From the NCBI GenBank assembly GCA_036556905.1, contig DATBIM010000156.1, positions 2,210-66,209 of the forward strand: 64,000 bases of DNA, written 5' to 3'. Positions within the stretch are counted from its first letter, which is position 1. Each line of letters starts with the position of its first letter. The notes under the pieces are model-generated. The model was not told where the DNA came from. It did not search any database and saw nothing but the letters and a program-made list of their open reading frames with translations. The stretch is from Candidatus Methylomirabilota bacterium (GTDB lineage Bacteria > Methylomirabilota > Methylomirabilia > Rokubacteriales > CSP1-6). Below are positions 17,699-49,178 of the stretch, in pieces. Position numbers and translations under genes: made by a program.

Positions 17699-19309
17699 AT
17701 GGAGGTGCTGAGCCCGCTGGGGGTGGCTGACACCCGGCCCCGGCCACTGGCCAAGCGTCCGGCCCGCCTCGCCGGCTGCCGGGTCGCCGTCCTCGACAAC
17801 TCCAAGCCCAACGCCGACGTGCTGCTGGAACGGCTGGCCGAGCTGCTCGTAGCCCGGGCCGGTGTGGCCGAGGTCCGCCGCTGGCGCAAGCCGGGCAGCT
17901 CCCGAGCGGCCGAGGAGATCGACGCGATCGTCGCGGCCGCCGACGTCGTCCTCACCGGCTCGGCGGACTGAGGCTCCTGCACGTCGTGGAGTATCCACGA
18001 CGCGGCGCAGATCGAGGGGCGGGGAGTCCCCACCGTTGTCCTCGGCACCGACCTGTTCGCCTCGCTGGGCCACAGTGCCGCCGCGGCGCTGGGCCTGCCC
18101 GACCTGCCCCTCGTGACCGTCGCCCACCCGATCGGGGGCGTCGATCCCCATGCCGTGGCGGCCCGCGCTGACGGCGTCCTCGACGCCGTCGTGGCGGCGC
18201 TGACCCGAGCGCCGGCGCACTCGCCCGCCGCGGCGCCCGGTGCGGTGGCCCTGCTGGCCGCCCCCGATGACATCGACGCCTTTCAGGAATTTGCTCTGGC
18301 CGAGGGCTGGGGCGACGGGCTTCCCGTGCTCCCGCCCACTCCTGAGCGAGTCGCGCGTGTGCTGGCCGGCCAGCGTGGCGACCAGGTCGTGGCCACCTTG
18401 CCGCCTCGGCGGGGCGTGGCGACGCTCGAGGCCATTGCGGTCAACGCCGCGCTGGCCGGCGCCGGGCCCGAGCAACTGCCCCTGATCGTGGCCGCCGTGC
18501 GCGCCGTCGCCGACCCCCGCTTCAACCTGGACGCGATCCAGGCCACCACCCACCCCTGCACGCCGCTGGTGATCGTCAACGGCCCCCTCGCTCGGCGCCT
18601 GGGCGTGCACAGCGGAGCCAACGCGCTGGGCCAGGGTCACCGGGCCAATGCGGTCGTGGGCCGCGGGCTGCGGCTCACGCTGCAGAACGTGGGCGGGGCC
18701 CGGGCCGGGCAGGGCGACCGCGCCACGCTCGGGCACCCCGGCAAGTTCACGTACTGCGTCGCCGAGAACGAGGCGGAGTCGCCCTGGGAGCCGCTGCACG
18801 TGGAGCGCGGCTTCGATGCCGCGGCGAGCTGCGTGACGGTGTGCGGTGCCGAGGCGCCCCACAACGTGAATGACCACGGCTCGACGTCCGCCGAGGCTTT
18901 GCTGCTGGCCCTGGCCGGCACCGCGGCGACCACCGGCAACAACAACATCTATCTGGGCGGCGAGCCGCTGATCCTCCTCGGTCCCGAGCACGCGCGGACG
19001 ATCGCCGGATCGGGCTGGTCCAAGCGCGATCTCAAGCGAGCATTGTTCGACCGCGCGCGGGTGCGCCTGGGGGCCTTCAGCGCGGAGAACCTGGCCCGCT
19101 TCGCCACGATCGATCCCGCGCGCTTCCGCGGCCGCTCGCCCGACGACACCGTCACCGTGGCCGTCACGCCGGACGACGTGATGGTGGTGGTGGCGGGGGG
19201 GCCCGGCAAGCACTCCGCCATCGTCCCCACGTTCGGCGCGACGCGCGCGGTGACCGTGCCCGTCGAGGCCCCGGGCGACGCGCCGGTTGCGGGGCCCCGC
19301 TCGCGGTGA
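17699..19309 (+). CDS. UGSC-motif selenoprotein fused to a ~400 aa domain of unknown function (in-frame UGA = Sec at 17969-17971)
   Basis: Same frame continues through TGA 17969-71 (…DVVLTGSAD-U-GSCTSW…). Both flanks are homologous to the stand-alone UGSC protein at 20429-20959. A hairpin follows the UGA. RBS AGGAGG before ATG 17699. Confidence 0.6.
17978..18010 (+). promoter_or_regulatory. candidate bacterial SECIS hairpin for UGA 17969
   Basis: GTCGTGG-AGTAT-CCACGAC (extendable), starting about 11 nt after the UGA. Confidence 0.5.
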
Positions 19310-19340: not shown

Positions 19341-20432
19341 ATGGCGATCACGTTGACCTCACCGCGCCACGCCGTGGCGAACCTGGATGACGCTATCGAG
19401 TTCTGCTTCCAGCAGGGCTGGAGCGACGGGCTGCCCGTGGTGCCCCCCACCGAGGCCAAGGTGCAGGCCATGCTGGACGCCGCCAAGCTCGATCCCCAGC
19501 ACCAGGTGGCCTACGTGGAGCACCGGGCGGTATCCATCACCGCCGAGAAGGTGGCGATCAACGCGGTGATGGCCGGTTGCCTGCCCGCGTACATGCCGGT
19601 GGTGGTGGCTGCCGTCGAGGCCATCGGGGATCCTCGGTGGTCGTATCATGGCCCGGGCACCTCCACCGCCGGCGCCGGCGTGCTCATGATCGTGAACGGT
19701 CCCATTCGCCGTGAGCTCGACATCAACTGCGGCGACAACCTCTTCGGCCCGGGCTGGCGGTCGAATCTGACCATCGGCCGCGCCGTCCGCCTGATCATGC
19801 GCAACGTGTGCGGCTCGTGGCCGGGACGGCTCGACCGGGGGACGCTGGGCCATCCCGGCAAGCTCTCCTACGTCATCGGGGAAAACGAGGAGGAGAGCCC
19901 GTGGCCGCCGCTCCACGTCGAGCGGGGGCTGCGCCGCGAGCAGAGCGCGGTGACGGTGATGGCGGCGGAGGCGCCGCACCAGATCTACAACCAGCTCTCC
20001 AGCACCGCCGAGGGCGTCCTCACCACGCTCAGCGACGCCATGCGGATCTCCGGCAACGTGATGGGGCAGCCGCACTATGCCCTGATCCTCGCCGGCGAGC
20101 ACATGCGGACGATCGCCGGGAGCGGGTGGGGCAAGGACCAGATCCGGCGCTTCGTGTGGGAGCACACGCAGAACTCCCACGCCCACCTGCGGCGGACCGG
20201 TCGTATGGCGGGTCCCGTGCAGCCCGGCGACGAGGACAGGCTGCGACCGCTGGTGGAGAGCCCGGATGATATCCTGGTTGTGGCCGCCGGAGGCCGGGCC
20301 GGAAGCTTCTCGGCCTACATCCCCGGCTGGGGCAGCAAACGTTCCTCGCAGGCGGTGACAGTGGTGGTCGGAGGTGAGGTGAGCCGCTCGCCGAGCCGAC
20401 CCTTCAACGAGGCAAAGGAGGTCAGGCAATGA
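19341..20432 (+). CDS. conserved protein of unknown function, paralog of the C-terminal domain of the 17699-19309 gene
   Basis: Shared blocks with the upstream gene: GW(S/G)DGLPV(V/L)PPT, TLGHPGK..Y…ENE.ESPW.PLHVERG, TIAGSGW. RBS AGGGAGG before ATG 19341. Confidence 0.55.
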   Translation: MAITLTSPRHAVANLDDAIEFCFQQGWSDGLPVVPPTEAKVQAMLDAAKLDPQHQVAYVEHRAVSITAEKVAINAVMAGCLPAYMPVVVAAVEAIGDPRWSYHGPGTSTAGAGVLMIVNGPIRRELDINCGDNLFGPGWRSNLTIGRAVRLIMRNVCGSWPGRLDRGTLGHPGKLSYVIGENEEESPWPPLHVERGLRREQSAVTVMAAEAPHQIYNQLSSTAEGVLTTLSDAMRISGNVMGQPHYALILAGEHMRTIAGSGWGKDQIRRFVWEHTQNSHAHLRRTGRMAGPVQPGDEDRLRPLVESPDDILVVAAGGRAGSFSAYIPGWGSKRSSQAVTVVVGGEVSRSPSRPFNEAKEVRQ

Positions 20433-20959
20433 TCGAGATCCTCGACCCTACCACCCCGGCCGCCCGCCAGGCCATCGCCTATGCGCCGCGGCCCGGATCA
20501 CTCACGGGCAAGCGTGTCGCGTTGATCGAGAACACCAAGTTCAACTCCGATCGGCTGCTCCAGAAGATCGGCGACATCATGGTCAGGGAGTATGGGGCCG
20601 CCTCCACCCGGATGTGGCGCAAGAAGAACGCCAGCGTGCCGGCGCACGAGGAGATCATCGCCGAGGTGCGCCGAACCTGCGACGTGGTCGTCGCCGGCAT
20701 CGGTGATTGAGGGTCCTGCTCGTCGGGCAGTGTGCTCGACGGAATCGTGCTCGAGAAGGCCGGCGTTCCCTCGGCGTCGATCGTGACCGACGTGTTCGAG
20801 CGGACGGCCCGGGCCATGGCCGAGCAGTGGGGCCTCCCGACCTACCGGTTCCTCATGATGCCGCACCCCATCGCCAACCTCAGCGAGGCCGAGCTGGACC
20901 AGCGAGCTCGCGCGATCGTCTCGGAGGTGGCCAAGCTCCTCCTCCAGGGTCAGGAGTGA
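20429..20959 (+). CDS. UGSC family selenoprotein, stand-alone (in-frame UGA = Sec at 20708-20710)
   Basis: …DVVVAGIGD-U-GSCSSGS… Reading frame continues to 20959. Homologous to both flanks of the UGSC region of the 17699 gene. ATGA overlap with the upstream gene; RBS AGGAGG. Confidence 0.6.
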
Positions 20960-20969: not shown

Positions 20970-21947
20970 CTGACGCGCACCCGGGATTTTCGGCCGGCCT
21001 GGTGGTGCCGGCATCGGCATCTGCAGACCCTCTGGGGGCCGCTCTTTCGCCGGGGCCGGACCCCCCTGCGGCGCGAGCGCCTGGAGATGGTCGATGGCGA
21101 TTTCGTCGACCTCGACTGGCTCGAGGGTCGGCCAGGGGCTCCCCTGGTGGTGGTGCTTCACGGTCTGGAAGGCTCGATCCGCTCCCACTATGTGGTCGGC
21201 CTGCTCCGGGAGGCGGCGGCTCGGGGCTGGCGTGGGGTCGTGCTGAACTTCCGATCGTGCAGCGGCGAGTTGAACCGCCTGCCCCGGTTCTATCACTCGG
21301 GCGAGACCTCGGATCTGGACGCGGTGATCGCTCGACTGCTGGAGCGGGAGCCCGCGCTCCGCATCGGCGCCATCGGGGTGTCGCTGGGCGGCAACGTGCT
21401 GCTCAAGTGGCTGGGCGAGAGAGAGCTGGACGCGCCCAAGCAGGTCGCGGGCGCCGCGGTGATCTCCGTCCCGTTCGACCTCGCGGCCAGCGCCCGGGCG
21501 CTGGACCGCGGCCTGTCCCGTGCCGTCTACACCAAGAGCTTCCTGAGGACCATGAAACGCAAGGTCGAGGCGAAGGCCGAGCGCTTTCCGGGGTTCGTCG
21601 ACGTGGCGGCGGCCCGCCGGGCCCGCACCTTTGCCGAGTATGACCGCGCCGTCACCGCCCCCCTGAACGGGTTCGCCGACGAGGTGGACTACTGGATGCG
21701 GGCCAGCAGCGGCCCCTACCTGCCGAAGATCCGTCGCCCCACGCTCCTGATCAGCGCCATTGACGACCCCCTGGTGCCGGCGGCGTCATTGCCGGATGTC
21801 AGCGGCCTGCCCGACGGCGTGATTGCGGAGTTCGTGGACCGGGGCGGTCACGTGGGCTTCATCGAGGGCCGGTGGCCGTGGCGGGCGCGCTCCTGGGCGG
21901 AGCGTCGGGCCATGGAGTTCCTGGAAACGGTGTTGGCTGAGGGCTAG
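20970..21947 (+). CDS. YheT-type alpha/beta hydrolase
   Basis: Matches YheT (…CRHRHLQTLWGPLFRR…LEMVDGDFVDLDW…VVVLHGLEGS). Similarity extends upstream of the first ATG (21087), where there is no in-frame ATG/GTG/TTG. CTG 20970 with an upstream GGAGTGAGG is a tentative start. Confidence 0.5.
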   Translation: MTRTRDFRPAWWCRHRHLQTLWGPLFRRGRTPLRRERLEMVDGDFVDLDWLEGRPGAPLVVVLHGLEGSIRSHYVVGLLREAAARGWRGVVLNFRSCSGELNRLPRFYHSGETSDLDAVIARLLEREPALRIGAIGVSLGGNVLLKWLGERELDAPKQVAGAAVISVPFDLAASARALDRGLSRAVYTKSFLRTMKRKVEAKAERFPGFVDVAAARRARTFAEYDRAVTAPLNGFADEVDYWMRASSGPYLPKIRRPTLLISAIDDPLVPAASLPDVSGLPDGVIAEFVDRGGHVGFIEGRWPWRARSWAERRAMEFLETVLAEG

Positions 21948-25747: not shown

Positions 25748-26446
25748 GTGCTCCGATCCATGTCGAGAGTACCGATCTCGCTTGCGCTGGCCACCGTGCT
25801 GATCACCGTCGCCACGGGCGTGGCGTATCTCGCCCTGCGCTGGGAGCCGGGGGACGAGACGGCAACCCCGATCGCCGCTCAGCCGCCGCGCGCCGAGCCG
25901 ACGGCGCCTTCAGCGTCGGCCCCGCCGCCGGCGGACACTCCGTCCCCCCGCCCGGCCAAGCCGCGGCCCGGCCGCCAGCTCGCTCTCGACGCCGCCATGC
26001 GCGAGCTCGACCTGATCCAGCCGTCGCGGACGCGCGCCGTGCAGGATTTCACGCTGCCGCTGGTGGGCGGCAAGTCGTTCCGCCTGACCGGCCATCGGGG
26101 GCAGATCCTGCTCATCAATTTCTGGGCGACCTGGTGCCCGCCCTGCCTCGAGGAGATGCCGGCGCTGGAGCGCCTGTGGCGTCAGCATCGGGACCACGGC
26201 TTCGTCCTGCTCGCCGTGTCGCTGGACACCGATTCCGGGCTCGTGGGTCCCTTCCTGGCCCGGCATCGCCTCACCTTCCCGGTCGCGCTCGACCCCAAGT
26301 ACGAGGTGGCCAATCTCTACGGCGTGCGGGCGCTGCCCGCGACCTTCGTCGTCGATCGGCTCGGGAACCTGGCCGCGCTGGCGCTGGGACCGCGAACCTG
26401 GGACAATGACGCGGCGCATTCCCTGGTGGAGGCTCTGGCGAAATAG
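25748..26446 (+). CDS. TlpA/ResA-like thiol:disulfide oxidoreductase (membrane-anchored thioredoxin fold)
   Basis: WATWCPPC active site with an N-terminal TM anchor. Confidence 0.7.
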   Translation: MLRSMSRVPISLALATVLITVATGVAYLALRWEPGDETATPIAAQPPRAEPTAPSASAPPPADTPSPRPAKPRPGRQLALDAAMRELDLIQPSRTRAVQDFTLPLVGGKSFRLTGHRGQILLINFWATWCPPCLEEMPALERLWRQHRDHGFVLLAVSLDTDSGLVGPFLARHRLTFPVALDPKYEVANLYGVRALPATFVVDRLGNLAALALGPRTWDNDAAHSLVEALAK

Positions 26447-26448
26447 GG

Positions 26449-27186
26449 ATGGGACAGTCGGTCGGCGTGGCAGTGGCGTTCAGCGCGGGCCTCTTCTCGT
26501 TCTTGTCGCCCTGCGTGCTGCCGCTGTTCCCCTCGTACCTGTCCTTTATCACTGGCATGTCGGTGGCCGACCTCACGGGCGACATCGCCCCCGCTGCGCG
26601 CCGGCGCGTGCTCCTGCACGCCCTGACCTTCGTGGCCGGCTTCTCGATGGTCTTCATCTCGCTGGGAGCGACCTTCAGCGCGGCCGGGCAGTTCCTGCTC
26701 GAGCATCGTGAGTCGATCCGCCGCCTGGGCGGCGCGCTGATCGTGCTCTTCGGCCTCTACATCGCCGGGGTGTTTCGCCTGGGCCTCTTCGGCCGCACCG
26801 CACAGCTCCAGTTCCGTGAGAAGCCGGCGGGTTATGCTGGCTCGCTCCTGGTGGGCATCACCTTCGCGATTGGGTGGACGCCCTGCGTGGGTCCCATCCT
26901 GGGGGCGATCCTGTCGTTGGCCGGTACCGCGGAGACGGTGCAGCGGGGTGTGGGCCTCCTCATCGCCTATTCGGCGGGCCTGGGTGTGCCCTTCCTGCTC
27001 TCCGCGCTGGCGCTCGGCTCGTTCCTGCGCTTCTTCAAGCGCTACCGCCCGTTCATCCCCGTCGTCGAGCGCGCCGCCGGGGTCCTGCTCGTCGTGGTGG
27101 GCGTGCTCGTCTTCACGAATTACTACACGGTCCTCAACGCCTGGGCCATCTCCCTGACGCCCGAGTGGCTGCTCAAGCGGCTCTAG
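26449..27186 (+). CDS. ccdA: cytochrome c-type biogenesis protein CcdA (DsbD-like thiol-disulfide transporter)
   Basis: FLSPCVLPLFP and …TPCVGPILG… Cys pair. Confidence 0.75.
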   Translation: MGQSVGVAVAFSAGLFSFLSPCVLPLFPSYLSFITGMSVADLTGDIAPAARRRVLLHALTFVAGFSMVFISLGATFSAAGQFLLEHRESIRRLGGALIVLFGLYIAGVFRLGLFGRTAQLQFREKPAGYAGSLLVGITFAIGWTPCVGPILGAILSLAGTAETVQRGVGLLIAYSAGLGVPFLLSALALGSFLRFFKRYRPFIPVVERAAGVLLVVVGVLVFTNYYTVLNAWAISLTPEWLLKRL

Positions 27187-31089: not shown

Positions 31090-32004
31090 ATGGATCTTCG
31101 CCGGCTCGAGGTCTTCGTGAAAGTCGCCGAGCTGGGGAGCTTCTCGCGCGCCGCCGAGGCGCTCTTTCTCACCCAGCCGACGGTGTCCGAGCATGTGCGC
31201 GCTCTCGAGGAGGACCTGGGTGTGCAACTGCTCGATCGCCTGGGCCGGGGAGCCGCCCCCACTCCGGCGGGACAGCTCCTGCTGGGCTACGCCCACCGCA
31301 TCCTGGCACTCATGCGCGAGGCGCGTCAGGCTGTCGATCGATTCCAGGGCCGTTTGCTCGGAGAGCTCATCGTGGGCGGCAGCACCATCCCCGGCGAGTA
31401 CATCCTTCCCGCCCTCATCGGCCAGTTCAAGGCCAAGTATCCCGATATCTCCATCAGCCTGCGCGTCGGTTCCAGCCAGCAGATCAGCGAGTGGGTGGAA
31501 GAGGGTCGGGTGGAGATCGGTGTCGTCGGGGCTCGTCCGGGCAGCCGGGCGCTGGTCGCCCGCGAGTTGATGGCCGACGAGATGGTGATCGTGGTGCCTC
31601 CCGAGCACCCCTGGACCCGACGGCCGAGCGTCGGGCTGGCCGACATCCGCGCGGAACCGCTCCTGCTGCGGGAACGCGGCTCGGGGACGCGGCAAGCGCT
31701 GGAGCGCGCGTTGGCCGAGGCGGGGACGGACCTGAGCGCCTTCCGGGTGGCTGGCGAGATGGGGTCCACCCAGGCGGTGAAGCAGGCGGTGCGAGCCGGG
31801 ATCGGCGTGACATTGCTGTCCAGGCTGGCCGTCGAGGACGAGTGCCGGGCCCGGCTCCTCGTGTGCGTGCGCGTGGAGGGTCTCGACGTTCGCCGGTCGT
31901 TCCACCTGGTGACCCATCGCGAACGCAGTCGCTCGCCGCTGGCGCAGGCCTTCCTGGAGTTCATAGAATCCCAGGCCGCCTCGGGGGCATCGCAAGAGCC
32001 GTGA
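31090..32004 (+). CDS. LysR family transcriptional regulator
   Basis: N-terminal HTH …FSRAAEALFLTQPTVSEHVRALE… and a LysR substrate-binding domain. Confidence 0.8.
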   Translation: MDLRRLEVFVKVAELGSFSRAAEALFLTQPTVSEHVRALEEDLGVQLLDRLGRGAAPTPAGQLLLGYAHRILALMREARQAVDRFQGRLLGELIVGGSTIPGEYILPALIGQFKAKYPDISISLRVGSSQQISEWVEEGRVEIGVVGARPGSRALVARELMADEMVIVVPPEHPWTRRPSVGLADIRAEPLLLRERGSGTRQALERALAEAGTDLSAFRVAGEMGSTQAVKQAVRAGIGVTLLSRLAVEDECRARLLVCVRVEGLDVRRSFHLVTHRERSRSPLAQAFLEFIESQAASGASQEP

Positions 32005-33062
32005 CGGGCAAAGAGATCCGTCTCACCGCCTACGCCTCCTGCGCGGGCTGAGCGTCCAAGATGGCTCCTGGAGATCTCCAGGAGGTGCTGGCCGTGCTCA
32101 GATCCGATCGCCCGACGGCCGCCCACGAGAACCTGCTGGTGGGCCTGGGACGCGCGGACGATGCGGCCGTCTACCGGTTGGCTCCCGATCTGGCTATCGT
32201 CGAGACGCTCGACTTCTTTCCGCCGGTCGTCGATGACCCTTATGTGTGGGGTGCCGTCGCCGCGGCCAATGCCATGTCCGACGTCTATGCGATGGGGGGC
32301 GAGGTGATGTTCGCCCTGGCCATCGCCGGCTTTCCCCGCGACATGCCCAAGTCGATCATCGCCGATGTCTTCCGGGGCGCCGCGGACAAGGTGGCCGAGG
32401 CGGGAGGCGTCGTGGCCGGGGGCCATACCGTCATCGACAACGAGCCCAAGTATGGGCTCTGTGTTACCGGCCGAATCCATCCCGATCGCGTCCTCCTCAA
32501 GGGCGGCCTCCGCCCGGGTGACCGTCTGTTCCTGTCCAAGCCCCTGGGCACCGGCGTCATCACCACGGCGGGCAAGGACGATGCGGCTCCGAGCGATATT
32601 CTGGCCGGCGCCGTCGCCAGCATGCTGAGGCTCAACCGGGTGGCGGCCCAGGTGGCCATTGCCGGCGGCGCCCGGGGCGCGACCGATGTCACGGGGTTCG
32701 GCCTGCTCGGTCACGCCGGCGAGATGGTGGAGGCGTCGGGGGCTGGGATCGAGGTGTCCTCCCGCCGCCTTCCGCTGCTGCCCGGCGCCCTGGCCCTCGC
32801 CGAGAAGGGACACTTCAGCGGGGGGATGAAGCGCAACCGCCGCTACGTCGAGGGCGTGTTCGGGCCCCGGCTCACGATCGACGCCGCGGTGGCTCCCGCG
32901 CTCGCTTCCCTCATGTTCGAGGCAGAGACCTCCGGGGGGCTGCTCTTCTCCGTCACGCCTGACCGGGCCCAGCGCGTGCTGGCCGACTTTGCCACTCGGG
33001 GGGAAACGGGCGTCGAGATCGGCGTCGTCCTCAGCGAGCCGCTGATTCGCGTCGTCCCCTGA
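32001..33062 (+). CDS. selD: selenide, water dikinase (selenophosphate synthetase) SelD with active-site selenocysteine (UGA 32049-32051)
   Basis: GTG 32001 overlaps the LysR stop (GTGA). N-terminus MTGKEIRLTAYASCAG-U-ASK… matches the SelD Sec/Cys loop. Downstream AIR-synthase-like fold. Hairpin after the UGA. Confidence 0.75.
32066..32085 (+). promoter_or_regulatory. candidate SECIS hairpin for selD UGA
   Basis: Perfect inverted repeat CTCCTGGAGA/TCTCCAGGAG, 15 nt downstream of the UGA. Confidence 0.5.
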
Positions 33063-33074: not shown

Positions 33075-33620
33075 CTAGGGCAGAAGCCCTCTCACGCGAG
33101 CCAGAACGTCATCGGTCGCCCAGTCCAGCTCGCCAACGACAGAGTAGCGGACAAGACCATCCGGACCGACCAGGAAGGTGGCTGGCAGCGTACGCACCCG
33201 CCAGGCCTCGATGGCCTCGTGGCGAGGATCGCGCAGCATCGGAAAGTCAACGGGCACGTGCCCCAGAAAGCTATTGATACGGGAGGCCGACTCGCCGTAG
33301 TTGACGCCCAGCACCGCGAAGGGCTGGCCGGCCAGCCGCTCGCGGAGCCGTTGGATCGAAGGCATCTCATCGCGGCAGGGCGGGCACCACGTCGCCCAGA
33401 AGTTGATCAAGACCACGCGGCCCTGGTACCGGGCGAGCGTATGGGTGGTTCCGCCGAGATCCTTGAGCTCCAGCGGTGGCGTTGGTCCGCGCCAGGGCCG
33501 AAACCGATCGACGTTTTCCGCGTCGGCCTGGACCCACAGCGCCAGCACGAGGAGCAGCGCGGCCGTGACGAGGCGCGGGCAGCTCCACCCGGGCGGAAGG
33601 CCGGCCGAGGGGTCAGGCAC
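33075..33620 (-). CDS. TlpA family thiol-disulfide oxidoreductase, secreted
   Basis: FWATWCPPC motif with an N-terminal signal/anchor. Confidence 0.7.
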   Translation of the reverse strand: MPDPSAGLPPGWSCPRLVTAALLLVLALWVQADAENVDRFRPWRGPTPPLELKDLGGTTHTLARYQGRVVLINFWATWCPPCRDEMPSIQRLRERLAGQPFAVLGVNYGESASRINSFLGHVPVDFPMLRDPRHEAIEAWRVRTLPATFLVGPDGLVRYSVVGELDWATDDVLARVRGLLP

Positions 33621-36493: not shown

Positions 36494-37507
36494 ATGACGC
36501 AGGAGGCCAGGGTCCAGGAGTTCGTCGCCGGCTTCGGCGCGCTGCGGAGCGAGGTGGAGAAGATCATCGTCGGGCAGCGCGAGATCATCGATCACGTCCT
36601 CATCGGGATGTTCGCCGGTGGCCATCTGCTCCTGGAGGGCGTGCCGGGCCTGGGCAAGACGCTCCTCATCAAGACGCTAGCCGAAGGGCTGGAGCTGTCC
36701 TTCTCGCGCATCCAGTTCACGCCGGATCTCATGCCGGCCGACATCATCGGCACGAACATCATCGTGGAGGACGCCTCGGGCCGGAAGCACTTCGAGTTCC
36801 AGCACGGGCCCATCTTCGCCCATATTCTGTTAGCCGACGAGATCAATCGGGCCACGCCCAAGACGCAGTCGGCCCTGCTGGAGGGGATGCAGGAAGGCTA
36901 CGTCACCGTGGGCGGGGCCTCCCGGCCGCTGCCGGTCCCGTTCTTCGTCCTGGCCACACAGAATCCCATCGAGATGGAGGGCACCTACCCCTTGCCGGAG
37001 GCCCAGCTGGACCGCTTCATGTTCAAGCTGCGCGTGCGCTATCCCGCCATCGACGAGCTCAACGCGATCATCGATCGCACCACCCAGATCCGTCAGGTGG
37101 CGGTCCAGCGCGTGATGAGCGGGCCCGGTGTGATCGGTTATAGAGAGCTGATCCGCGAGGTGCCCATCGCCTCTCATGTCCGCGACTTCGCGTCGGCGGT
37201 GGTCATGGCTACGCACCCGGAGTGGGAGCACGCCCCCGACATCACCCGGCGCTTCGTCCGCTACGGAGCCAGCCCCCGGGGGGCTCAGGCGCTGGTGCTG
37301 GGGGCCAAGGTGCGGGCCTTGTGTCAGGGGCGATTCAATGTGAGCGTGGAGGATCTCAAGGCGCTGGCCGCGCCGGCGCTCCGGCACCGCGTGATCCTGA
37401 ACTTCGAAGGTGAGGCCGAGGCCGTGGACACCGACACGCTCATCGGCGATATCGTCGCCGGCGTCGAGCAACACGCGACGCAGGGCAAGGAGCTCTTTCT
37501 CCGCTGA
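36494..37507 (+). CDS. MoxR family AAA+ ATPase
   Basis: GVPGLGKT Walker A, …LLADEINRATPKTQSALLEGMQE…. Confidence 0.85.
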   Translation: MTQEARVQEFVAGFGALRSEVEKIIVGQREIIDHVLIGMFAGGHLLLEGVPGLGKTLLIKTLAEGLELSFSRIQFTPDLMPADIIGTNIIVEDASGRKHFEFQHGPIFAHILLADEINRATPKTQSALLEGMQEGYVTVGGASRPLPVPFFVLATQNPIEMEGTYPLPEAQLDRFMFKLRVRYPAIDELNAIIDRTTQIRQVAVQRVMSGPGVIGYRELIREVPIASHVRDFASAVVMATHPEWEHAPDITRRFVRYGASPRGAQALVLGAKVRALCQGRFNVSVEDLKALAAPALRHRVILNFEGEAEAVDTDTLIGDIVAGVEQHATQGKELFLR

Positions 37508-37525
37508 TCGCACCTGGAGGGCCTG

Positions 37526-38986
37526 ATGGCCGATAGGGACGAGCCTCTCCCCGAGCTCGACGCGCTGGTACGCCGCATCGTCAGCCAGGTGCGCTGGCGT
37601 CGGGCCGAGCACTTCGCGCTGCGCGGCGTGTTCTGGGGCGCCGTCGCTGGGGTCATCGTCCTGCTCCTGAAAGTTGTGGTCGGCGCCTACTGGGCGTCCG
37701 TCCTGGCCGGCGCCTTCGTCGTGGCTGGCCTCCTGGGGGGCGGCTGTTGGGGCCTGGCCCGCCGGGTGGCCCCGCTCGCGGCCGCCCGGCTCGGTGACCG
37801 GGCCTTCGGGCTGGAGGACCGTGTGGCCACCGCCCTGGAGTGGGCGGGCCGGGCCGACCGGACACCGCTGGTGGATTCGCTCATCGCCGACGCTCGCACG
37901 CGGGCGTCCCGGTTGACCCCACGTCAGATCGTGCCACGGGTACTGCCCCGCGAGGTGAAGTGGCTGCCGGCACCGGCGCTGGCGGCCCTCGTCCTGGTGC
38001 TGAGCCCTCCGGTGCCGCTCCCGGCCGGCCGGCTGTTCGACCTGCCGACCGGGGCCGAGGAGGCCGAGTCAACGGACCGATCGGCTGGTGACCTGCTTCA
38101 GGAAGACAAGCGGCCGGCGGCGAAGGATCCCCTCCGCCGCCCCGCTCTGGAGGAGCGCGACTACATGCCGCGGACGGCCGGGGGCGGAGCCCCGACCGCG
38201 GGAGATCTGAGCGCGATCTTCAAGGACACCTCGCTCGGCAACCAGCGGCCCGACTTCAACAGCTTCCTCAAGAAGGGCGACGAGCGCCTCAAGCTGCTCG
38301 AGCAGGTGGACCGCCTGCCCGATCTGCAGTCGGACTTCACGAACAATCAGTACAAGATGGTGTTCCGTAAGTCCAAGGCCCTGCGGGGCGGCCTGCGCCC
38401 GGATCAGATCTCGCCGCAGAAGCTGCGCGAGCTGCTCGAGGAGATGGAGCGCCTGGGCCGCAAGGGCGGCAACTGGAGTTCCGACGTGGGCGAGGGCATG
38501 GAGGCCCTGGAGTACGGCGACCAGGATCGCGCCATGGACGCCATGGAGAAGGCCCTCAACAAGCTCCGGGCCATGGAGGAAGGAAAGCGCTCGGGCCGGG
38601 GGCTTCGCGGTGGTCGCGAGACCGATCGCGACCGGGAGCGTGGCCGGGGCGGATCGAGCGCGGGTGGCGAGGATCCGGATTTCGGTGAGAGCGAAGGGCT
38701 GTTGCCCGGCAAGGGCAAGAGCCCTTCGCCGAAGGGCGAGGCCTCCAAGCGCTTGCGCGCCAACCCTTATGACGTGGGCGTGGAGGGCGAGTCCCGGCCG
38801 GGCCGCAAAGACGGCTATGACACGAACCTCACCGGGCGCGCCGGCCACACACCCTCCCGCCTCACTTACCTGGGGGTCATCGGCCAGTACCGCAAGGCGA
38901 TGGAGGATGCGCTGGTCCGCGAACAGGTGCCCCGTGACTACCACGAGCAGATTCGCGACTACTTCCAGTCCCTCGACGAGCGCTGA
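37526..38986 (+). CDS. hypothetical membrane protein with a long charged low-complexity region (Bat-cluster associated)
   Basis: Two N-terminal TM helices, RDRERGRGG-rich centre, conserved-looking C-terminus. Lies between MoxR and DUF58. Confidence 0.4.
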   Translation: MADRDEPLPELDALVRRIVSQVRWRRAEHFALRGVFWGAVAGVIVLLLKVVVGAYWASVLAGAFVVAGLLGGGCWGLARRVAPLAAARLGDRAFGLEDRVATALEWAGRADRTPLVDSLIADARTRASRLTPRQIVPRVLPREVKWLPAPALAALVLVLSPPVPLPAGRLFDLPTGAEEAESTDRSAGDLLQEDKRPAAKDPLRRPALEERDYMPRTAGGGAPTAGDLSAIFKDTSLGNQRPDFNSFLKKGDERLKLLEQVDRLPDLQSDFTNNQYKMVFRKSKALRGGLRPDQISPQKLRELLEEMERLGRKGGNWSSDVGEGMEALEYGDQDRAMDAMEKALNKLRAMEEGKRSGRGLRGGRETDRDRERGRGGSSAGGEDPDFGESEGLLPGKGKSPSPKGEASKRLRANPYDVGVEGESRPGRKDGYDTNLTGRAGHTPSRLTYLGVIGQYRKAMEDALVREQVPRDYHEQIRDYFQSLDER

Positions 38987-38989
38987 GCG

Positions 38990-39880
38990 GTGCCGGCGGC
39001 CACCCACCACGGCTTTTTCAGCTCGGAGTTCCTGGCCCAGCTCGAGCGCTTGACCCTGGCCTCCCGCCGCACCTTCCGGGGACGGGTGAAGGGCGAGCGG
39101 CGGAGCCCCCGCAGGGGGCAGAGCGTCGAGTTCGCCGACTACCGGCCCTACGGGATCGGAGACGACCTCCGGTACGTCGACTGGAACATCTACGGGCGGC
39201 TGGAGCGTCTGCACGTGAAGCTGTTCGTCGACGAAGAGGATCTCTGCGTGCATCTGCTCGTGGACGGGTCGAGCTCTATGGCCTTCGGCCAGCCGACCAA
39301 GCTGCGCTACGCGGCCCGGGTGGCGGCGGCGCTCGGCTTCGTGGGGCTGGTGAGCCTGGAGCGCGTGGGCATCGGTGTGCTTCGCGAGAAGGTGAGCGAA
39401 GGGTGGGCGCCCACTCGCGGGCGTAACCAGTTCGTGACGCTGGTGGACTTCCTCTCGCGACTCGAGGCCGGGGGGGCCACCAGCCTCAACCGCGGCCTGA
39501 GCGACTACGCCGTGCGCGCCCGCGAGCCGGGGCTGGCCATTCTGATCTCCGACCTGCTAGACCCTGCCGGCTTCGAGAGCGGGGTCCGGGCGCTGCTCGA
39601 GCGCCGGTTCGAGGTGCACGTGATCCACGTGCTGGCCGCGGAGGAGCTGCACCCCACCCTGGCCGGAGACCTCCGCCTGCACGACAGCGAGACCGACGCG
39701 ACGCTCGAGATCACCATCGACGGCGAGGCGCTGAGTGGTTATCGGCAGCGGCTCGGGCAGTTCCTGCAGCGGGTGGAGGAGTTCTGCCGTTCTCAGGAGA
39801 TCGGCTACCGGCGGGTGAGCACCGAGATCCCGGTGGAGGAGTTCGTCCTGTCCCACCTGCGGGGTCTGGTGCTGGGGTGA
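38990..39880 (+). CDS. DUF58 domain protein (MoxR-associated, VWA-like)
   Basis: …EFADYRPYGIGDDLRYVDWNIYGR… DUF58 signature. Confidence 0.75.
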   Translation: MPAATHHGFFSSEFLAQLERLTLASRRTFRGRVKGERRSPRRGQSVEFADYRPYGIGDDLRYVDWNIYGRLERLHVKLFVDEEDLCVHLLVDGSSSMAFGQPTKLRYAARVAAALGFVGLVSLERVGIGVLREKVSEGWAPTRGRNQFVTLVDFLSRLEAGGATSLNRGLSDYAVRAREPGLAILISDLLDPAGFESGVRALLERRFEVHVIHVLAAEELHPTLAGDLRLHDSETDATLEITIDGEALSGYRQRLGQFLQRVEEFCRSQEIGYRRVSTEIPVEEFVLSHLRGLVLG

Positions 39881-39890
39881 GGGAGGACCG

Positions 39891-42800
39891 GTGAGCTTCC
39901 TGACCCCTCTGGCCTTTGCCCTGCTCGGGCTGACCCTGCCCCTGGTATTGCTCTACTTCCTCAAGGTGCGACGGCGTCAACAACGGGTACCCAGCCTCCT
40001 CTTCTGGGAGGCGACGCTGCACGACCGTCAGGCCTCGGCATTCTTCCAGCGGTTGCAGCGCGATCCCCTCCTCATCCTCCAGATCCTGGCCCTGCTGGCG
40101 CTGACGCTGGCCCTGGCCCGGCCGGCCCTCACGGTGACCGGTGACGGTGCTCGCAAGGTGGCGGTGGTTCTGGACGGTTCCGCCTCGATGAAAACGCGCG
40201 ATGGCGGTGGGTCCCGGTTCGCCGCGGCCAGATCCGAAGCGGCGGCCATGGTGAGTCGGCTGGGTGAGGGGGCCGAGGTGCTGGTGGTGGAGACCGGCGC
40301 GCACCCCCGCGTACTGGCGCCGCTCTCGCGGGACCGCGATCGGGCTCTGGCCGCCATCCGTTCGGCACAGGCGCGCGACCTTCCCAATCGCCTGCCCGAG
40401 GCGCTGCGGACGGCGCGCGCGCTCGTGGGGGCCGACCCGACGGCCGAGATCTACGTGTACACGGACGGCGCGTTTACGCTGCCGCGGGCGCCGGAGACCA
40501 CCGACGGCCGGCTCCGCTGGATCGCGGTGGGAGGCGGAGGCCGCAACGTCGGCCTCACCAACCTGGCGGTGCGCAAGAGTTACCAGGGGTCCCCGGAGTA
40601 CCAGGCCTTCGCCTCCCTGGTGAACTATTCGTCGGACACCCAGACCTTCACGCTCAGGCTGGAGCTCGACGGCACGCTCATCGCCGAGAAGTCCTTGAGC
40701 CTGGAGCCCAACATCCGCCGTTCGGTGGTCCTGCCCTTCAGCCACACGGGCGGGGGCACCCTGAAGGCCGGCATCGACGTGCGCGACGACCTGGCTTCGG
40801 ACAACGTCGCCTACGCCGTGCTGCCGCCGCCCCGCAAGATCCAGGTCTTGCTGGTGAGTCGCGGCAATCTGTTCCTGGAAAAAGTCCTCCGCACCGATCC
40901 TCAGGTCGCGCTGGAGGTCCGCACGCCCGATCTGTACCAGGGCGGTATGGCCGAGGCCGACATCGTGATGCTGGATTCGACCGCGCCCGCCCGGGTGGGG
41001 CCGGGGCGGTTCTTCTTCGTCAACGTGGTGCCGCCCGACGTGCCGCTGGAGGCGTTGGGCCGTATTGAGCGGCCGACCATCATGGACTGGGACCGGGCCC
41101 ATCCGATCATGCGGCACGTCGAGCTGGCCAAGGTGGTCATCGAGGACGCGCTGCGCATCCGGCCTCTGGCTCCGGGGCGGCCGCTGGTGGAGGCGATCGG
41201 TGGTCCGCTCGTCTACGCCCTCGAGGAGGCGGAGCGCAAGGCCGTCTTCATCGGCTTCGACCTGTTCAAGACCGACTTCCCGCTGCGGGTGGCCTTCCCG
41301 CTGATCCTGTCCAACAGCCTGCGCTGGCTCCACCCGGCGGCCCTGGACCAGTCCAGCCTGCAGCTGGCTTCCGGGCAGCCGATCCTGCTGCCGGTCGAGC
41401 ACGGCGTGAGCTCGGTCACCGTCACCACGCCAGGCGGGCGCAGCACGAAGGCGCAGATCACCCGGGGCGTGGTGAGCTACGCCGAGACCGACGAGGTGGG
41501 GATCTATCGCTTCACGACCTCGCGGGGTGAGATGCGAGTGGCCGTCAACCTCGCTGACGCCGAAGAGTCCCACGTGCAGCCCCGGCCGCTGCCGGCGTCC
41601 GCGGGCCCGCCCCCGGAGGCCACGGTGCCGGTACCGGTGCAGCGGGAGCTGTGGCAGCTGTTCGTCCTGCTGGCGGTGATCCTGCTCGCCCTGGAAGGCG
41701 TGCTCTACTGGCGGCGTCAGAGCGGGCACTGGCCGATGCTGCCCCGGGTTTCCGGTGATCGCTGGGCGCTGGGGCTCCGAGCCGCCCTGCTCGTCGTGCT
41801 GTGCTCCACGCTGTTGAAGCCCACGCTGCCGCGGCTCGTCGACCGCCAGAACGTCATCTTCCTTTTCGATCACTCGGACAGCGTGAGCCTGGCCGCGCGA
41901 GAGCGCGCCTGGCGGTTCGCCGCGGAATCGATGAAGTCCATGCGTCCCGGTGATCGTGCCGGTGCGGTGGTGTTCGGCGAGGACGCAGTGGTCGATCAGC
42001 CGCTGGCCTCGCGGCCCACCCTGGAGCGTCCCCGGAGCCCGGTGGCCCCCCGCGGGACCAACCTGTTCCAGGCGGTCCAGCTGGCCCTGGCCACGCTGCC
42101 TCCCGGACACGCCAACCGCATCGTCATGCTGACCGACGGTCGCCAGACGAGCGGCAACGCGCTGGCGGCGGCCCAGGCGGCCAAGGACGCCGGCGCTGAC
42201 ATCTACTACGTGCCGGCGCCGCTCACCTTCGAGCAGGAGGTGGTGGCCGAATCCCTCGTGCTTCCACAGGAGGTGAAGTTCGGCGAGCCGTTCCAGGCCA
42301 AAGTGGTGGCGTGGAGCCTCAAGGACACCCAGGGGCGGCTCTCGCTCTTCCGCAACGGAGAGTTCCTGGGCTCCCAGGTAATCCGGCTCAACACGGGCAA
42401 GAACGTGTTCAGCTACCGCCAGTCGCTGGACTCCAGCGGGATCCACGTCTACCAGGCGGCCATCGAGGTCGACGGGGACACGATCGAAGACAACAACCGG
42501 GCGGTCGGTACGGTGGTCGTGCGAGGTCGGCCGCAGGTGCTGCTGGCCGAGAAGGACCGGAGCCACGCCCAGTCTCTGGTGGCCGCCCTGCGCTCGCAGA
42601 ACATCGAGGTGACCGTCGTCGAGGCCAACGGGATCCCCAAAGACGTGGCCGGCCTGCAGAAGTACGACGGTCTCATCCTCTCCAACATCTCGTCGCTCAA
42701 GCTCACCCGGGTCCAGATGGCGAACATTCGGGACTACGTCCGCGACTACGGGGGCGGCTTGATCATGGTGGGCGGTGAGGAGAGCTTCGGCCTCGGCGGC

Positions 42801-44300: not shown

Positions 44301-45645
44301 CCTCCGACGAGGATTGACTCTGTCGCTGACCATCCTGGTCGCGGTCCTGGGGCCGCCGGGCCTGGCCGGTGCCGCCCCTGCCGCTAAACCCCAGGTGGTG
44401 CTGGTCATGCCGTTCGACGCCAGCGGGACCGGGGCCGATTGGGCGTGGGTGGGCCAGGCAGTGGCCGAGGTGCTGACCCTGGGCTTGAGCCAGCATCCGG
44501 CGTTCGTCCAGATCGACCCGGCTCGGCTTCGGGCCTTCGGACAGCCGGAGGCCTGGGGCGAGAGCGCCGTTGTCCAGGCCGCCCGCTCGTTACGCGCCGA
44601 CACGGCGCTGTTCGGAACGGTAACCCGCGCCGGCTCCGACTTCACCATTCGGGCCCGGCTGCTCGAGGTCAAGGGCACGGGAGCCGATGTCATCGGGCTC
44701 GAGCCGCTGACGTTCCCCGGGGACGAGCTGCTGGCTCAGCTGCCCGGCCTGGTCAGCACCTACGCGCGGACGATGAAAGTCCCGCTGACCGACGCGGAAA
44801 CCGCCCGCATCGAGAAGGCGGCGCGGCCGACCAACACGCTGAGGGCCTTCGAGCTCTACGCGCGCAGTCAGCAGGCGGCCTACCGCGGCGGCCAGGAGGG
44901 CAACGAGAGCGCGGCTGACCTGCTGGCCCGGGCCATCGAGGCCGACCCGAGCTTTGTGGTCGCTCAATACTCCCTAGGCCGGGTGCATCAGGCGCTGGGC
45001 AACCGCTGGAAGGCGGCGGCGCAGTATCGGGCCGCCACTCAGCTCGATCCCCTCTACCCCGAGCCCTACAAGGCCCTGGGCGACTTGCTGCTGTTGGCGC
45101 CGCGCCGGCTCTTTGACCAAGCCGTGGAAGCCTACCAGAAGGCCATCGAGCGACGCCCGTTCTACGCCGACGCCCACGTGGGACTGGGTGACGCTCTGGC
45201 CGCCAAGGGAGATGTGGACGGGGCCATCAACGCCTACCAGCGGGCCCTGACCTTCCACACCGCCAACCCGCGGGTCCATGTGAGCCTCGGCAAGATTTAT
45301 TACAGCGAGAAGGGGCTCTATTACGAGTCCGTGAATGCTTACAAACGCGCGATCGATCTGGACGCGCGGTCGATCGAGGCCCGGATGGGCCTGGGCGAAG
45401 TCTACGAGGAAAAGGGTCTGTACAAGGAAGCGATCGACGAGTACCGGCGGGTGATCGAGACCGAGCCGTTGCACGCGGAGGCCCTCTACAATCTGGCCCT
45501 GGTCTACGAGAAGGTGGACCCGCGTGAGGCGATCACCCACTGGGAGCGCTACATCGCGCTGGCCTCGCAGATTCCCGCGCAGAAGGATTGGGTCGACGTC
45601 GCCCGCCAGCACCTGCGCAAGCTGCGGAACCAGGTCAAGGACTAG
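44287..45645 (+). CDS. TPR-repeat protein with signal peptide (BatC-like)
   Basis: N-terminal signal peptide and multiple 34-aa TPR repeats (…AYQKAIE…P.YA.AH..LG…). ATG overlaps the upstream stop. Confidence 0.7.
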   Translation: MMVRDLRRGLTLSLTILVAVLGPPGLAGAAPAAKPQVVLVMPFDASGTGADWAWVGQAVAEVLTLGLSQHPAFVQIDPARLRAFGQPEAWGESAVVQAARSLRADTALFGTVTRAGSDFTIRARLLEVKGTGADVIGLEPLTFPGDELLAQLPGLVSTYARTMKVPLTDAETARIEKAARPTNTLRAFELYARSQQAAYRGGQEGNESAADLLARAIEADPSFVVAQYSLGRVHQALGNRWKAAAQYRAATQLDPLYPEPYKALGDLLLLAPRRLFDQAVEAYQKAIERRPFYADAHVGLGDALAAKGDVDGAINAYQRALTFHTANPRVHVSLGKIYYSEKGLYYESVNAYKRAIDLDARSIEARMGLGEVYEEKGLYKEAIDEYRRVIETEPLHAEALYNLALVYEKVDPREAITHWERYIALASQIPAQKDWVDVARQHLRKLRNQVKD

Positions 45646-48749: not shown

Positions 48750-48760
48750 GGGGACGGGCC

Positions 48761-49153: not shown

Positions 49154-49178
49154 AGTAAGGATTGGGAGGTCGCGTCCG

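What the first reader, a model, noticed from the sequence alone, without database searches (positions are those of the whole stretch)
17699..19309. In-frame UGA (17969-71) in a 'TGSAD-U-GSC' motif, with a hairpin 11 nt downstream: selenocysteine readthrough, not a stop
The ORF track ends a 226-aa ORF at this TGA and starts a new ORF at GTG 18113 in the same frame. There are no stops between them. The 48 codons between the TGA and 18113 are homologous to the region after the U in the second UGSC gene (GSC…GVP…TD.F…GLP…HPI). The hairpin GTCGTGG-AGTAT-CCACGAC sits where bacterial SECIS elements lie.
Basis: seen in the sequence. Interest (0 to 1): 0.8.

Follow-up and report, generated by a model that had tools for sequence, protein, structure and literature searches.

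The report
Known UGSC selenoprotein gene, correctly spotted
The in-frame UGA at 17969-71 almost certainly encodes selenocysteine in a member of the already described but functionally uncharacterised "UGSC" selenoprotein family, so what gene callers split in two is one 536-residue protein.

Summary
Gene A (17699-19309) is a single gene. Read through UGA 17969-71, it scores above the curated cut-offs of NCBIfam NF041046 "UGSC family (seleno)protein" and Pfam PF24696.

A conserved 8-bp hairpin (9 bp in this window) starts 11 nt after the UGA and has a G-U-N loop. It meets all four published bacterial SECIS constraints. Four of its eight conserved pairs show compensatory changes. It is intact at all 85 TGA sites examined and degraded at the six Cys-codon sites.

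Homologues carry Cys exactly at the U position. The window also encodes SelD (32001-33062), itself interrupted by a UGA with its own hairpin, so the organism (Methylomirabilota/Rokubacteria-like) uses selenium. selA, selB and selC are not in the window.

The family was described in 2007-2008, along with a "UGSC/Unknown_1" fusion that is probably this architecture, so this is not new.

What I add:
- The UGSC domain models as a flavodoxin-like α/β fold, not thioredoxin-like.
- The C-terminal ~350-residue domain has no Pfam, NCBIfam or PDB relative. It always pairs 1:1 with UGSC.
- Elsewhere that domain is fused to AhpC/TSA-type or ferredoxin:thioredoxin-reductase domains. This points to a thiol/selenol-fed enzyme of unknown substrate.

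The parts
17699..19309 (+). Gene A: a single 536-codon gene for a UGSC(Sec)-'Unknown_1' fusion selenoprotein, including the stop codon
   Evidence: One open frame apart from TGA 17969-71. NF041046 scores 137.5 bits against a cut-off of 125; PF24696 has E 8e-50 over residues 2-169, spanning the U. The syntenic locus L001 has the same split gene calls.
17969..17971 (+). In-frame UGA read as selenocysteine (residue 91) in the motif D-U-G-S-C
   Evidence: TGA occurs at this column in 65 distinct fusion-type sites, against 2 with TGC/TGT. Cys occupies this column in stand-alone homologues.
17982..18002 (+). SECIS hairpin CGUCGUGGA-GUA-UCCACGACG. The conserved 8-bp core is 17983-18001, and the loop G-U falls at +23/+24 from the U of UGA
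   Evidence: Folding. Alignment of 46 sites: 93% of cells paired, 4 of 8 conserved pairs with compensatory changes, slid controls 18-52%. The hairpin is lost at Cys-codon sites.
17699..18205 (+). UGSC domain (residues 1-169)
   Evidence: Pfam and NCBIfam matches. The AlphaFold model of the Cys homologue P0121 is a (beta-alpha)5 flavodoxin-like fold with the U-equivalent Cys94 at the N-cap of helix 3.
18254..19306 (+). C-terminal 'Unknown_1'-type domain (residues 186-536). This copy has Ala where the family has a near-invariant Cys (NAxxAG-C-xP)
19341..20432 (+). Gene B: stand-alone paralogue of the Unknown_1 domain (363 aa), which retains the AGC cysteine
   Evidence: About 40% identical to the gene A C-domain. 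5,282 clusters of relatives. Motif check.
20429..20959 (+). Gene C: stand-alone UGSC selenoprotein (176 codons). Its start overlaps the gene B stop (ATGA)
   Evidence: NF041046 144.7 bits; PF24696 E 3e-61.
20708..20710 (+). Second in-frame UGA (Sec) in D-U-G-S-C
   Evidence: 10 distinct homologous sites, all TGA.
20721..20741 (+). SECIS hairpin of gene C: CGUCGGGCA-GUG-UGCUCGACG
   Evidence: -14.1 kcal/mol. Same register as gene A, with two pairs changed on both sides.
32001..33062 (+). selD (selenide, water dikinase), itself with an in-frame UGA at 32049-51 and a hairpin at 32065-32084. This supports selenium use by the organism
   Evidence: TIGR00476 scores 324.6 bits for the ORF after the UGA. 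It rises to 347.6 bits with full profile coverage once the N-terminus is read through the UGA.

Best explanation
**Recoding.** UGA 17969-71 is recoded to selenocysteine. A SelB-type elongation factor carrying Sec-tRNA(Sec) would bind the hairpin that starts 11 nt downstream. That hairpin presents G-U at loop positions +23/+24, the same geometry as the E. coli fdhF minimal SECIS. The ribosome then continues and makes one 536-residue protein.

**Redox motif.** The Sec sits in a U-G-S-C (UxxC) motif at the N-terminal cap of a helix in a flavodoxin-like alpha/beta domain. There it can form a selenenylsulfide with the Cys three residues on.

**Partner domain.** This redox domain is tethered to an uncharacterised ~350-residue domain, probably the 'Unknown_1' of Zhang & Gladyshev 2008.

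**Inferred function.**
- I infer that this domain is the substrate-binding or catalytic module that the selenol/thiol pair serves.
- I infer that the oxidised pair is re-reduced by a thioredoxin-type system.
- The window carries two such pairs: one fused (gene A) and one split into adjacent genes (B then C).
- The fused copy lacks the family's near-invariant Cys. It may work as a heteromer with gene B.

**Shown versus inferred.**
- Shown: the in-frame conserved UGA, the SECIS structure and its covariation, family membership, Cys homologues, selD in the window, and the domain architectures.
- Inferred: SelB binding, the selenenylsulfide chemistry, the role of the C-domain, the electron donor, and the heteromer.
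For: **Family membership.** NF041046 and PF24696 both score above their cut-offs.

**Conserved UGA.** Nearly all database homologues are called from just after the TGA, at 411-424 aa and about 77% coverage. Of the fusions retrieved from 80 loci in several phyla, 65 distinct sites have TGA and 2 have Cys.

**SECIS.**
- The hairpin meets the published model: a 3-nt loop matching N1-G-[G|U]-N-N2, an 8-9 bp stem, 19 nt spacing, and -14.6 kcal/mol (model from PMC13188914).
- Four of eight pairs have compensatory changes, some through synonymous third-position changes (ACG/GAC to ACA/GAT; TCG/CAC to TCA/CAT).
- All 85 TGA sites keep 7-8 of 8 pairs and a GTN loop built on the rare Ser codon AGT. The six Cys-codon sites keep only 5-7 of 8 pairs and no GU loop, although four of the six encode a near-identical peptide.

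**Genetic code and selenium use.** TGA is the ordinary stop of most genes in the window, so this is not a reassigned code. SelD with its own UGA and hairpin lies in the window.

**Function of the C-domain.**
- UGSC and Unknown_1 pair 1:1 in all but two of the 86 loci, fused in either order or as adjacent genes. The two exceptions show Unknown_1 alone, and some loci are cut short by contig ends.
- Unknown_1 is alternatively fused to AhpC/TSA-Redoxin domains or to the ferredoxin:thioredoxin reductase beta domain.
- A thioredoxin-reductase-like gene lies beside the Cys-type pair in two of the three Burkholderiales loci examined.
Against: - No tRNA-Sec, selA or selB lies in the 64 kb, so the decoding machinery is inferred rather than seen.
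- The hairpin lacks the bulged U17 of the E. coli element (PMC8659212).
- The hairpin overlaps conserved codons (T-S-W-S-x-H-D), so part of its conservation reflects protein constraint.
- Rfam has no matching family.
- Nothing here shows the chemistry of the protein. The C-domain has no known relative, and I could not model the two domains together.
- The gene A copy of the C-domain lacks the family's conserved Cys.
Confidence: 0.92

Rival explanations
1. The UGA is a true stop. The locus would hold two genes: a 90-residue N-terminal fragment and a 398-residue protein starting at GTG 18113, as automated callers annotate it.
For: Public gene calls split the homologues this way. TGA is the commonest stop codon in the window.
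Against: - The 47 codons between the TGA and 18113 are open, have GC3 of 0.90, and match the UGSC profile continuously across the U.
- The callers' start sites differ from homologue to homologue.
- Cys-codon homologues are uninterrupted single proteins.
Confidence: 0.02
2. The UGA is decoded through the SECIS element, but as cysteine by a tRNA(ReC)/SelC*-type tRNA, or is read through by a near-cognate tRNA rather than by tRNA(Sec).
For: SECIS-dependent UGA-to-Cys recoding tRNAs are reported in some bacteria (discussed in PMC13582414). I could not inspect the tRNA set of this genome.
Against: - A Sec-type selD in the same window implies genuine selenophosphate and Sec metabolism.
- The family has been documented as a selenoprotein family since 2007-2008 (PMC1976440, PMC2398784).
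- The strong preference for TGA over Cys codons across phyla is hard to explain if the product were simply Cys.
Confidence: 0.04
3. The TGA is a sequencing or assembly error, or a recent nonsense mutation, making this a pseudogene.
For: The window is probably a metagenome assembly. One search includes a homologue (P0012) with a deletion of this region.
Against: The same TGA occurs at the same column in 75 distinct sequences from independent assemblies and several phyla. It occurs twice in this window in paralogues. Protein-level conservation is intact on both sides.
Confidence: 0.01

Closest known systems
UGSC family (seleno)protein (NCBIfam NF041046; Pfam PF24696), the 'UGSC-containing protein' of Zhang & Gladyshev (PMC1976440, PMC2398784)
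   Same: Genes A and C both score above the curated cut-offs. They have the U-G-S-C motif with Sec at the family's position, Cys homologues, and a SECIS directly downstream. As in the GOS data (255 Sec against 21 Cys), Sec forms predominate.
'UGSC/Unknown_1' fusion reported from the Global Ocean Sampling data (PMC2398784, Fig. S1A)
   Same: [quoted passage not shown] This is the architecture of gene A plus gene B.
   Different: I could not confirm that the paper's Unknown_1 is the same domain, because the figure is held only as an image. In this window the fused copy has lost the domain's near-invariant Cys, and a second, split pair sits next to it.
E. coli fdhF-type bacterial SECIS and the bSECIS consensus model
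   Same: The upper stem-loop starts 11 nt after the UGA and has G23-U24 in the apical loop. All four consensus constraints are met.
   Different: There is no bulged U17. The stem is a perfect 8-9 bp helix with a 3-nt (or A-U-closed 5-nt) loop. The element is written entirely in the codons T-S-W-S-x-H-D.
UxxC selenoprotein reductase subunits GrdB/PrdB (Pfam PF07355), a functional analogy only
   Same: A UxxC motif in a non-thioredoxin alpha/beta protein that works with a separate substrate-binding partner and, for Grd/Prd, is recycled by the thioredoxin system.
   Different: No sequence relationship was detected: no Pfam hit other than UGSC even at E up to 10. There are no Grd/Prd partner genes nearby. 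Membership is not claimed.

Membership tests
UGSC family (seleno)protein (NF041046 / PF24696) | Score above the curated HMM cut-off over the whole domain | tested here: met
   Gene A: 137.5 bits against 125 (NCBIfam) and 169.8 against 25 (Pfam). Gene C: 144.7 and 207 bits. U was replaced by C in the query.
UGSC family (seleno)protein (NF041046 / PF24696) | U/C-G-S-C motif with Sec or Cys at the aligned column | tested here: met
   D-U-G-S-C in both genes. Cys at that column in P0121, P0127, P0154, P0157, P0180, P0183 and others and in full-length fusions P0413, P0451, P0455 and P0499.
Bacterial SECIS (bSECIS consensus, PMC13188914 Fig. 2) | Apical loop of 3-9 nt on an upper stem of 4-16 bp | tested here: met
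   A 3-nt loop on a 9-bp stem here; an 8-bp stem is conserved across loci.
Bacterial SECIS (bSECIS consensus, PMC13188914 Fig. 2) | G in the first or second loop position, usually followed by G or U | tested here: met
   The loop is GUA (A-GUA-U). 85 of 85 TGA sites have a GUN loop, against 0 of 6 Cys-codon sites.
Bacterial SECIS (bSECIS consensus, PMC13188914 Fig. 2) | 16-37 nt between the UGA and the apical loop; MFE at or below -7.5 kcal/mol | tested here: met
   19 nt spacing; -14.6 kcal/mol for the hairpin alone.
Bacterial SECIS (bSECIS consensus, PMC13188914 Fig. 2) | Structure maintained by compensatory change | tested here: met
   4 of 8 pairs changed on both sides. 93% of cells are paired, against 18-52% when the partner is slid. 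0 of 500 shuffles reach the covariation score. Caveat: the stem lies in conserved codons.
Bacterial SECIS (bSECIS consensus, PMC13188914 Fig. 2) | Binds SelB and directs Sec insertion | not testable with these tools
   Needs experiment.
Sec-decoding trait of the host | selD present | tested here: met
   TIGR00476 scores 347.6 bits at full length when read through UGA 32049-51.
Sec-decoding trait of the host | selA, selB and tRNA-Sec (selC) present | not testable with these tools
   None in the 64-kb window, and the rest of the genome is not available. Indirect support: a Sec-type SelD requires them, and Methylomirabilota MAGs are reported with up to 63 selenoprotein genes (PMC13188914).
Thioredoxin-fold redox proteins (fold proposed for UGSC in 2008) | Thioredoxin fold (mixed beta-sheet, beta-alpha-beta-alpha-beta-beta-alpha) carrying the CxxC/UxxC | tested here: not met
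GrdB/PrdB selenoprotein B (PF07355) | Sequence match to the family profile | tested here: not met
   Only PF24696 was found for 25 UGSC proteins at E up to 10.

The most novel reading that the evidence does not exclude
UGSC plus the ~350-residue partner domain may be a widespread two-module selenoenzyme (Cys-dependent in some lineages) of a fold class with no solved relative. In this reading, a dedicated selenol/thiol carrier delivers reducing equivalents, ultimately from thioredoxin reductase or a ferredoxin:thioredoxin-reductase-like module, to a conserved Cys (NAxxAG-C) in the partner. The partner would act on a small carboxylate or acyl-CoA-related substrate. In Rokubacteria the fused copy, which has lost that Cys, would act as a non-catalytic partner of the adjacent split pair.
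Probability: 0.3. Interest if true: 0.6.

Novelty: already known. Interest (0 to 1): 0.3.

Why it matters
**Annotation.** The locus should be one 536-residue selenoprotein plus a 176-residue one. Public gene calls truncate almost all of its relatives, and selD in the same window needs the same correction.

**Biology.** UGSC is among the most abundant selenoprotein families in aquatic metagenomes, yet its function is still unknown. Three results here make it more approachable:
- Its strict 1:1 pairing with an unclassified domain that has more than 5,000 sequence clusters.
- The alternative fusions of that domain to thioredoxin-type and FTR-type modules.
- Cys-type versions in cultivable Paraburkholderia and Advenella, next to acyl-CoA metabolism genes.

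None of this changes what is known about selenocysteine decoding.

Tried and rejected
- **Rfam.** Scanning the window gave no hit. This is uninformative, because no matching SECIS family reached threshold.
- **tRNA search.** The window and 60 related loci contain no tRNA-Sec.
- **AlphaFold database.** Foldseek against afdb50 was unavailable.
- **GrdB/PrdB.** A relationship of UGSC to this family was looked for and not found.
- **Hairpin statistics.** The hairpin alone is not significant.
- **Other selenoprotein genes.** A scan for in-frame TGA with coding potential on both sides found only the two UGSC sites. It missed selD because that gene's N-terminal exon is short.
- **Identity of 'Unknown_1'.** The 2008 supplement could not settle this, because the figure is an image and the sequence file is cut.
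- **Small downstream ORF.** The 82-91 aa ORF after Cys-type UGSC in Burkholderiales has no Pfam match and no counterpart in the window.

Full report
**What is in the sequence**

The window is 69% G+C with strong third-position GC bias. Its closest database relatives are named Methylomirabilota/Rokubacteria.

The ORF listing ends a 226-aa ORF at TGA 17969-71 and opens a 398-aa ORF at GTG 18113 in the same frame. Translating 17699-19309 gives one open frame with a single stop, in ...VVLTGSAD*GSCTSWSIHD....

ATG 17699 follows a GGAGGAG ribosome-binding site, 12 nt after the stop of the upstream CPBP/Rce1-like gene.

A second gene, 20429-20959, has the same D-*-G-S-C arrangement at TGA 20708-10. 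Between the two lies gene B (19341-20432), about 40% identical to the C-terminal two-thirds of gene A.

**Family**

With the stop replaced by Cys, both genes pass curated thresholds.
- Gene A scores 137.5 bits and gene C 144.7 bits against NCBIfam NF041046 "UGSC family (seleno)protein" (cut-off 125).
- Against Pfam PF24696, gene A has E 8e-50 and gene C E 3e-61.
- The gene A match runs from residue 2 to 169, straight across the U.

Residues ~186-536 of gene A, and all of gene B, match nothing in Pfam or NCBIfam.

**Is the UGA conserved, and is Cys found there?**
- Of 2,553 database relatives of the read-through protein, the best 120 are almost all 411-424 aa and cover about 77% of the query. 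Gene callers started them just after the TGA, at varying positions.
- A syntenic 356-kb Methylomirabilota contig shows the same layout, called as five fragments.
- A scan of one genome per species returned 80 loci from Rokubacteria, Beta- and Deltaproteobacteria, Acidimicrobiales, Dehalococcoidia, unclassified bacterial MAGs and a haloarchaeon.
- Reading upstream of each match, every fusion but two has TGA immediately before G-[SGA]-C. The exceptions, a Sphingomonas MAG and Natronomonas gomsonensis, have TGC and TGT.
- Stand-alone homologues from Burkholderiales are uninterrupted and read ...GDCGSCSSGSVLDG..., with Cys in the U column. Some are already named "UGSC family (seleno)protein" by NCBI.
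- Full-length Cys-type fusions also exist.

**The SECIS element**

*Structure.* Both UGAs are followed, after 10-11 nt, by a perfect 9-bp hairpin with a 3-nt loop.
- Gene A: CGUCGUGGA-GUA-UCCACGACG (17982-18002, -14.6 kcal/mol).
- Gene C: CGUCGGGCA-GUG-UGCUCGACG (20721-20741, -14.1 kcal/mol).

*Fit to the published consensus (PMC13188914).*

| Constraint | Required | Observed |
|---|---|---|
| Apical loop | 3-9 nt | 3 nt |
| Upper stem | 4-16 bp | 8-9 bp |
| Loop pattern | N1-G-[G/U]-N-N2 | A-G-U-A-U |
| UGA-to-loop spacing | 16-37 nt | 19 nt |
| MFE | at or below -7.5 kcal/mol | -14.6 kcal/mol |

Counting from the U of UGA, the loop G and U are nucleotides 23 and 24, and the stem starts 11 nt after the codon. 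This is the geometry of the E. coli minimal element, without its bulged U17 (PMC8659212).

*Covariation.* On 46 distinct sites, 93% of cells are paired, against 18-52% when the 3' partner is slid. Four of the eight conserved pairs show changes on both sides. These include synonymous third-position pairs (ACG...GAC to ACA...GAT; TCG...CAC to TCA...CAT) in unrelated lineages.

*Sec versus Cys comparison.* This is the most telling control.
- All 85 TGA sites keep 7-8 of 8 pairs and a GUN loop written with the Ser codon AGT. That codon is unusual in genomes with GC3 near 0.9.
- The six Cys-codon sites keep 5-7 of 8 pairs and never have the GU loop.
- Four of those six encode a near-identical peptide but use TCG or ACC instead.

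*Caveats.* A hairpin after a TGA trinucleotide is not rare in itself: about 17 in the window against 8.4 in shuffles. The stem also lies in conserved codons, so conservation alone would be weak evidence. The Sec/Cys contrast and the compensatory changes carry the argument.

**Does the organism use selenocysteine?**
- There is no tRNA gene in the window. Pfam annotation of 46 other predicted proteins across the window found no selA or selB.
- ORF 32061-33062 is SelD (TIGR00476, 324.6 bits).
- Its N-terminus is cut by an in-frame TGA at 32049-51 in ...YASCAG*ASKMAP.... Extending the protein through it from GTG 32001 makes the profile match full-length (positions 1-310) and raises the score to 347.6 bits.
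- Thirteen nt after that UGA lies an 8-bp hairpin, CUCCUGGA-GAUC-UCCAGGAG, with G first in the loop.
- A Sec-type SelD cannot be made without SelA, SelB and tRNA-Sec.
- The phylum is reported to include a MAG with 63 predicted selenoprotein genes (PMC13188914).
- TGA also terminates most ordinary genes here, so a reassigned genetic code is excluded.

**What the protein looks like**

*UGSC domain.* AlphaFold2 on a Cys homologue 66% identical to gene C (P0121; pLDDT 86.7) gives five beta-alpha units.
- The U-equivalent Cys94 sits at the N-cap of helix 3, and Cys97 in its first turn.
- The "Trx-like fold" suggested in 2008 is therefore not supported by this model.

*C-domain of gene A.* The model has pLDDT 83.2 and pTM 0.86.
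- Its most conserved motif, PG..DR.T.GHPGK, falls in the only internal low-confidence loop.

**The partner domain and likely function**

*Family size.* A full HMMER scan with gene B finds 5,282 clusters at 50% identity.

*Architectures.*
- Stand-alone (~345 aa).
- UGSC-X and X-UGSC fusions, many truncated at the Sec codon.
- Tandem X-X (~715 aa).
- AhpC/TSA-Redoxin-X.
- FeThRed_B-X and UGSC-X-FeThRed_B.

*Pairing.* In the 86 loci held here, UGSC and X occur 1:1 in all but two, which show X alone (some loci are cut short by contig ends).
- 58 loci have one fusion.
- At least 11 have the window's four-domain layout, UGSC-X | X | UGSC.
- The Cys-type Burkholderiales loci have X then UGSC with overlapping stop and start.

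*Conserved cysteine.* A Cys in N-x-x-x-A-G-C-x-P is present in 125 of 130 occurrences. Gene B has it. Gene A and its Rokubacteria orthologues have Ala, and in most of the loci where both were scored they are accompanied by a Cys-bearing copy.

*Neighbours.* These vary by lineage.
- Rokubacteria: MFS transporter and CPBP protease upstream.
- Betaproteobacteria: TctC/Bug-type binding proteins.
- Several lineages: acyl-CoA dehydrogenases, family III CoA-transferases, acyl-CoA ligases, MaoC hydratases and, in two of the three Cys-type Burkholderiales loci, a thioredoxin-reductase-like flavoprotein.

*Inference.* I take this to mean that X is the working module and UGSC (or a Trx-type or FTR-type domain in its place) is its dedicated redox partner, probably within organic-acid or acyl-CoA metabolism. 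This is inference; no chemistry is shown.

**Comparison with what is known**
- The "UGSC-containing protein" was reported as a selenoprotein of unknown function in 2007 (PMC1976440).
- In 2008 it was reported as one of the most abundant selenoprotein families in the Global Ocean Sampling data (255 Sec, 21 Cys). The same paper noted a "UGSC/Unknown_1" fusion in which Unknown_1 also occurs alone (PMC2398784).
- The family has NCBIfam and Pfam models and is listed in 2022 and 2026 reviews.
- I could not verify from the supplement that Unknown_1 is the domain seen here, but the description fits.

**Verdict**

The remaining value has two parts. The first is corrected annotation: gene A, gene C and selD. 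The second is three side observations that make the family's unknown function more testable:
- the non-thioredoxin fold of the UGSC domain;
- the orphan partner domain and its alternative redox fusions;
- the loss of that domain's conserved Cys in the fused copy.

Noticed in passing
window 32001-33062 (+); UGA 32049-32051; hairpin 32065-32084: selD is itself a selenoprotein gene. An in-frame UGA sits in ...CAG-U-ASK..., near the N-terminus where the TIGR00476 match resumes once the UGA is read through. An 8-bp hairpin with loop GAUC lies 13 nt downstream. A LysR-type regulator (31090-32004) lies directly upstream, and its stop overlaps the likely selD start GTG 32001.
   Followed up: yes
window 18254-19306 versus 19341-20432: The partner domain fused in gene A has Ala where the family has a near-invariant Cys (NAxxAG-C-xP; 125 of 130 occurrences). 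Gene B keeps the Cys. The Rokubacteria orthologues of gene A that were scored share the loss, and most are accompanied by a Cys-bearing copy.
   Followed up: partly
P0423, P0425, P0436, P0475; P0408, P0462 (database proteins): The same partner domain is fused in other organisms to an AhpC/TSA-Redoxin (CxxC) domain or to the ferredoxin:thioredoxin reductase catalytic domain instead of, or in addition to, UGSC. Three of the four Redoxin fusions (those whose sequences were read) carry a conserved G-C-[GA]-S-[RK] motif in the linker.
   Followed up: partly
P0412, P0497, P0393: Some full-length fusions have a degenerate UGSC domain with neither Sec nor Cys at the motif (AEIGGS, AADIGAA) or with only the first Cys (HCGASS).
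   Followed up: no
L046:4673-7290 (Natronomonas gomsonensis): A haloarchaeon carries a Cys-type fusion plus a stand-alone partner domain. The DNA after its TGT codon still keeps 7 of the 8 stem pairs but not the GU loop. This looks like a transfer from bacteria followed by Sec-to-Cys conversion.
   Followed up: no
P0012: One close homologue (482 aa) is continuous because about 55 residues around the Sec motif are deleted. This could be a real deletion variant or an assembly artefact.
   Followed up: no
L082:6552-6827, L083:6531-6779, L085:6569-6826: In Burkholderiales the Cys-type pair is followed by a conserved small ORF (82-91 aa) with no Pfam match. It has no counterpart after gene C in the window, where an alpha/beta hydrolase (21087-21947) follows instead.
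   Followed up: partly
window 25748-27186 and 33075-33620: There are two TlpA/ResA-like thioredoxin-fold genes, one followed by a CcdA/DsbD_TM gene. Both score only weakly against the NCBIfam model for a ResA-like WAxxUGC selenoprotein, and both are uninterrupted ORFs, so presumably Cys forms. The first pair is syntenic in L001.
   Followed up: no
window 36494-45645 (+): A MoxR AAA ATPase, a 486-aa protein with no Pfam or NCBIfam hit (37526-38986), DUF58, a 1,469-aa ORF and a TPR protein form a tightly packed same-strand cluster. Consecutive genes are separated only by TGA plus a few bases.
   Followed up: no
window 47523-54873 (+): Two class-V aminotransferase (cysteine desulfurase-like) genes flank a DnaJ-domain protein and an Hsp70. 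This resembles an ISC-type Fe-S assembly locus. ORF 52325-53719 has no Pfam hit and may not be a real gene.
   Followed up: no
L060: 5998 (+) and 11571 (-): One betaproteobacterial contig carries two Sec-type fusions on opposite strands within 6 kb.
   Followed up: no
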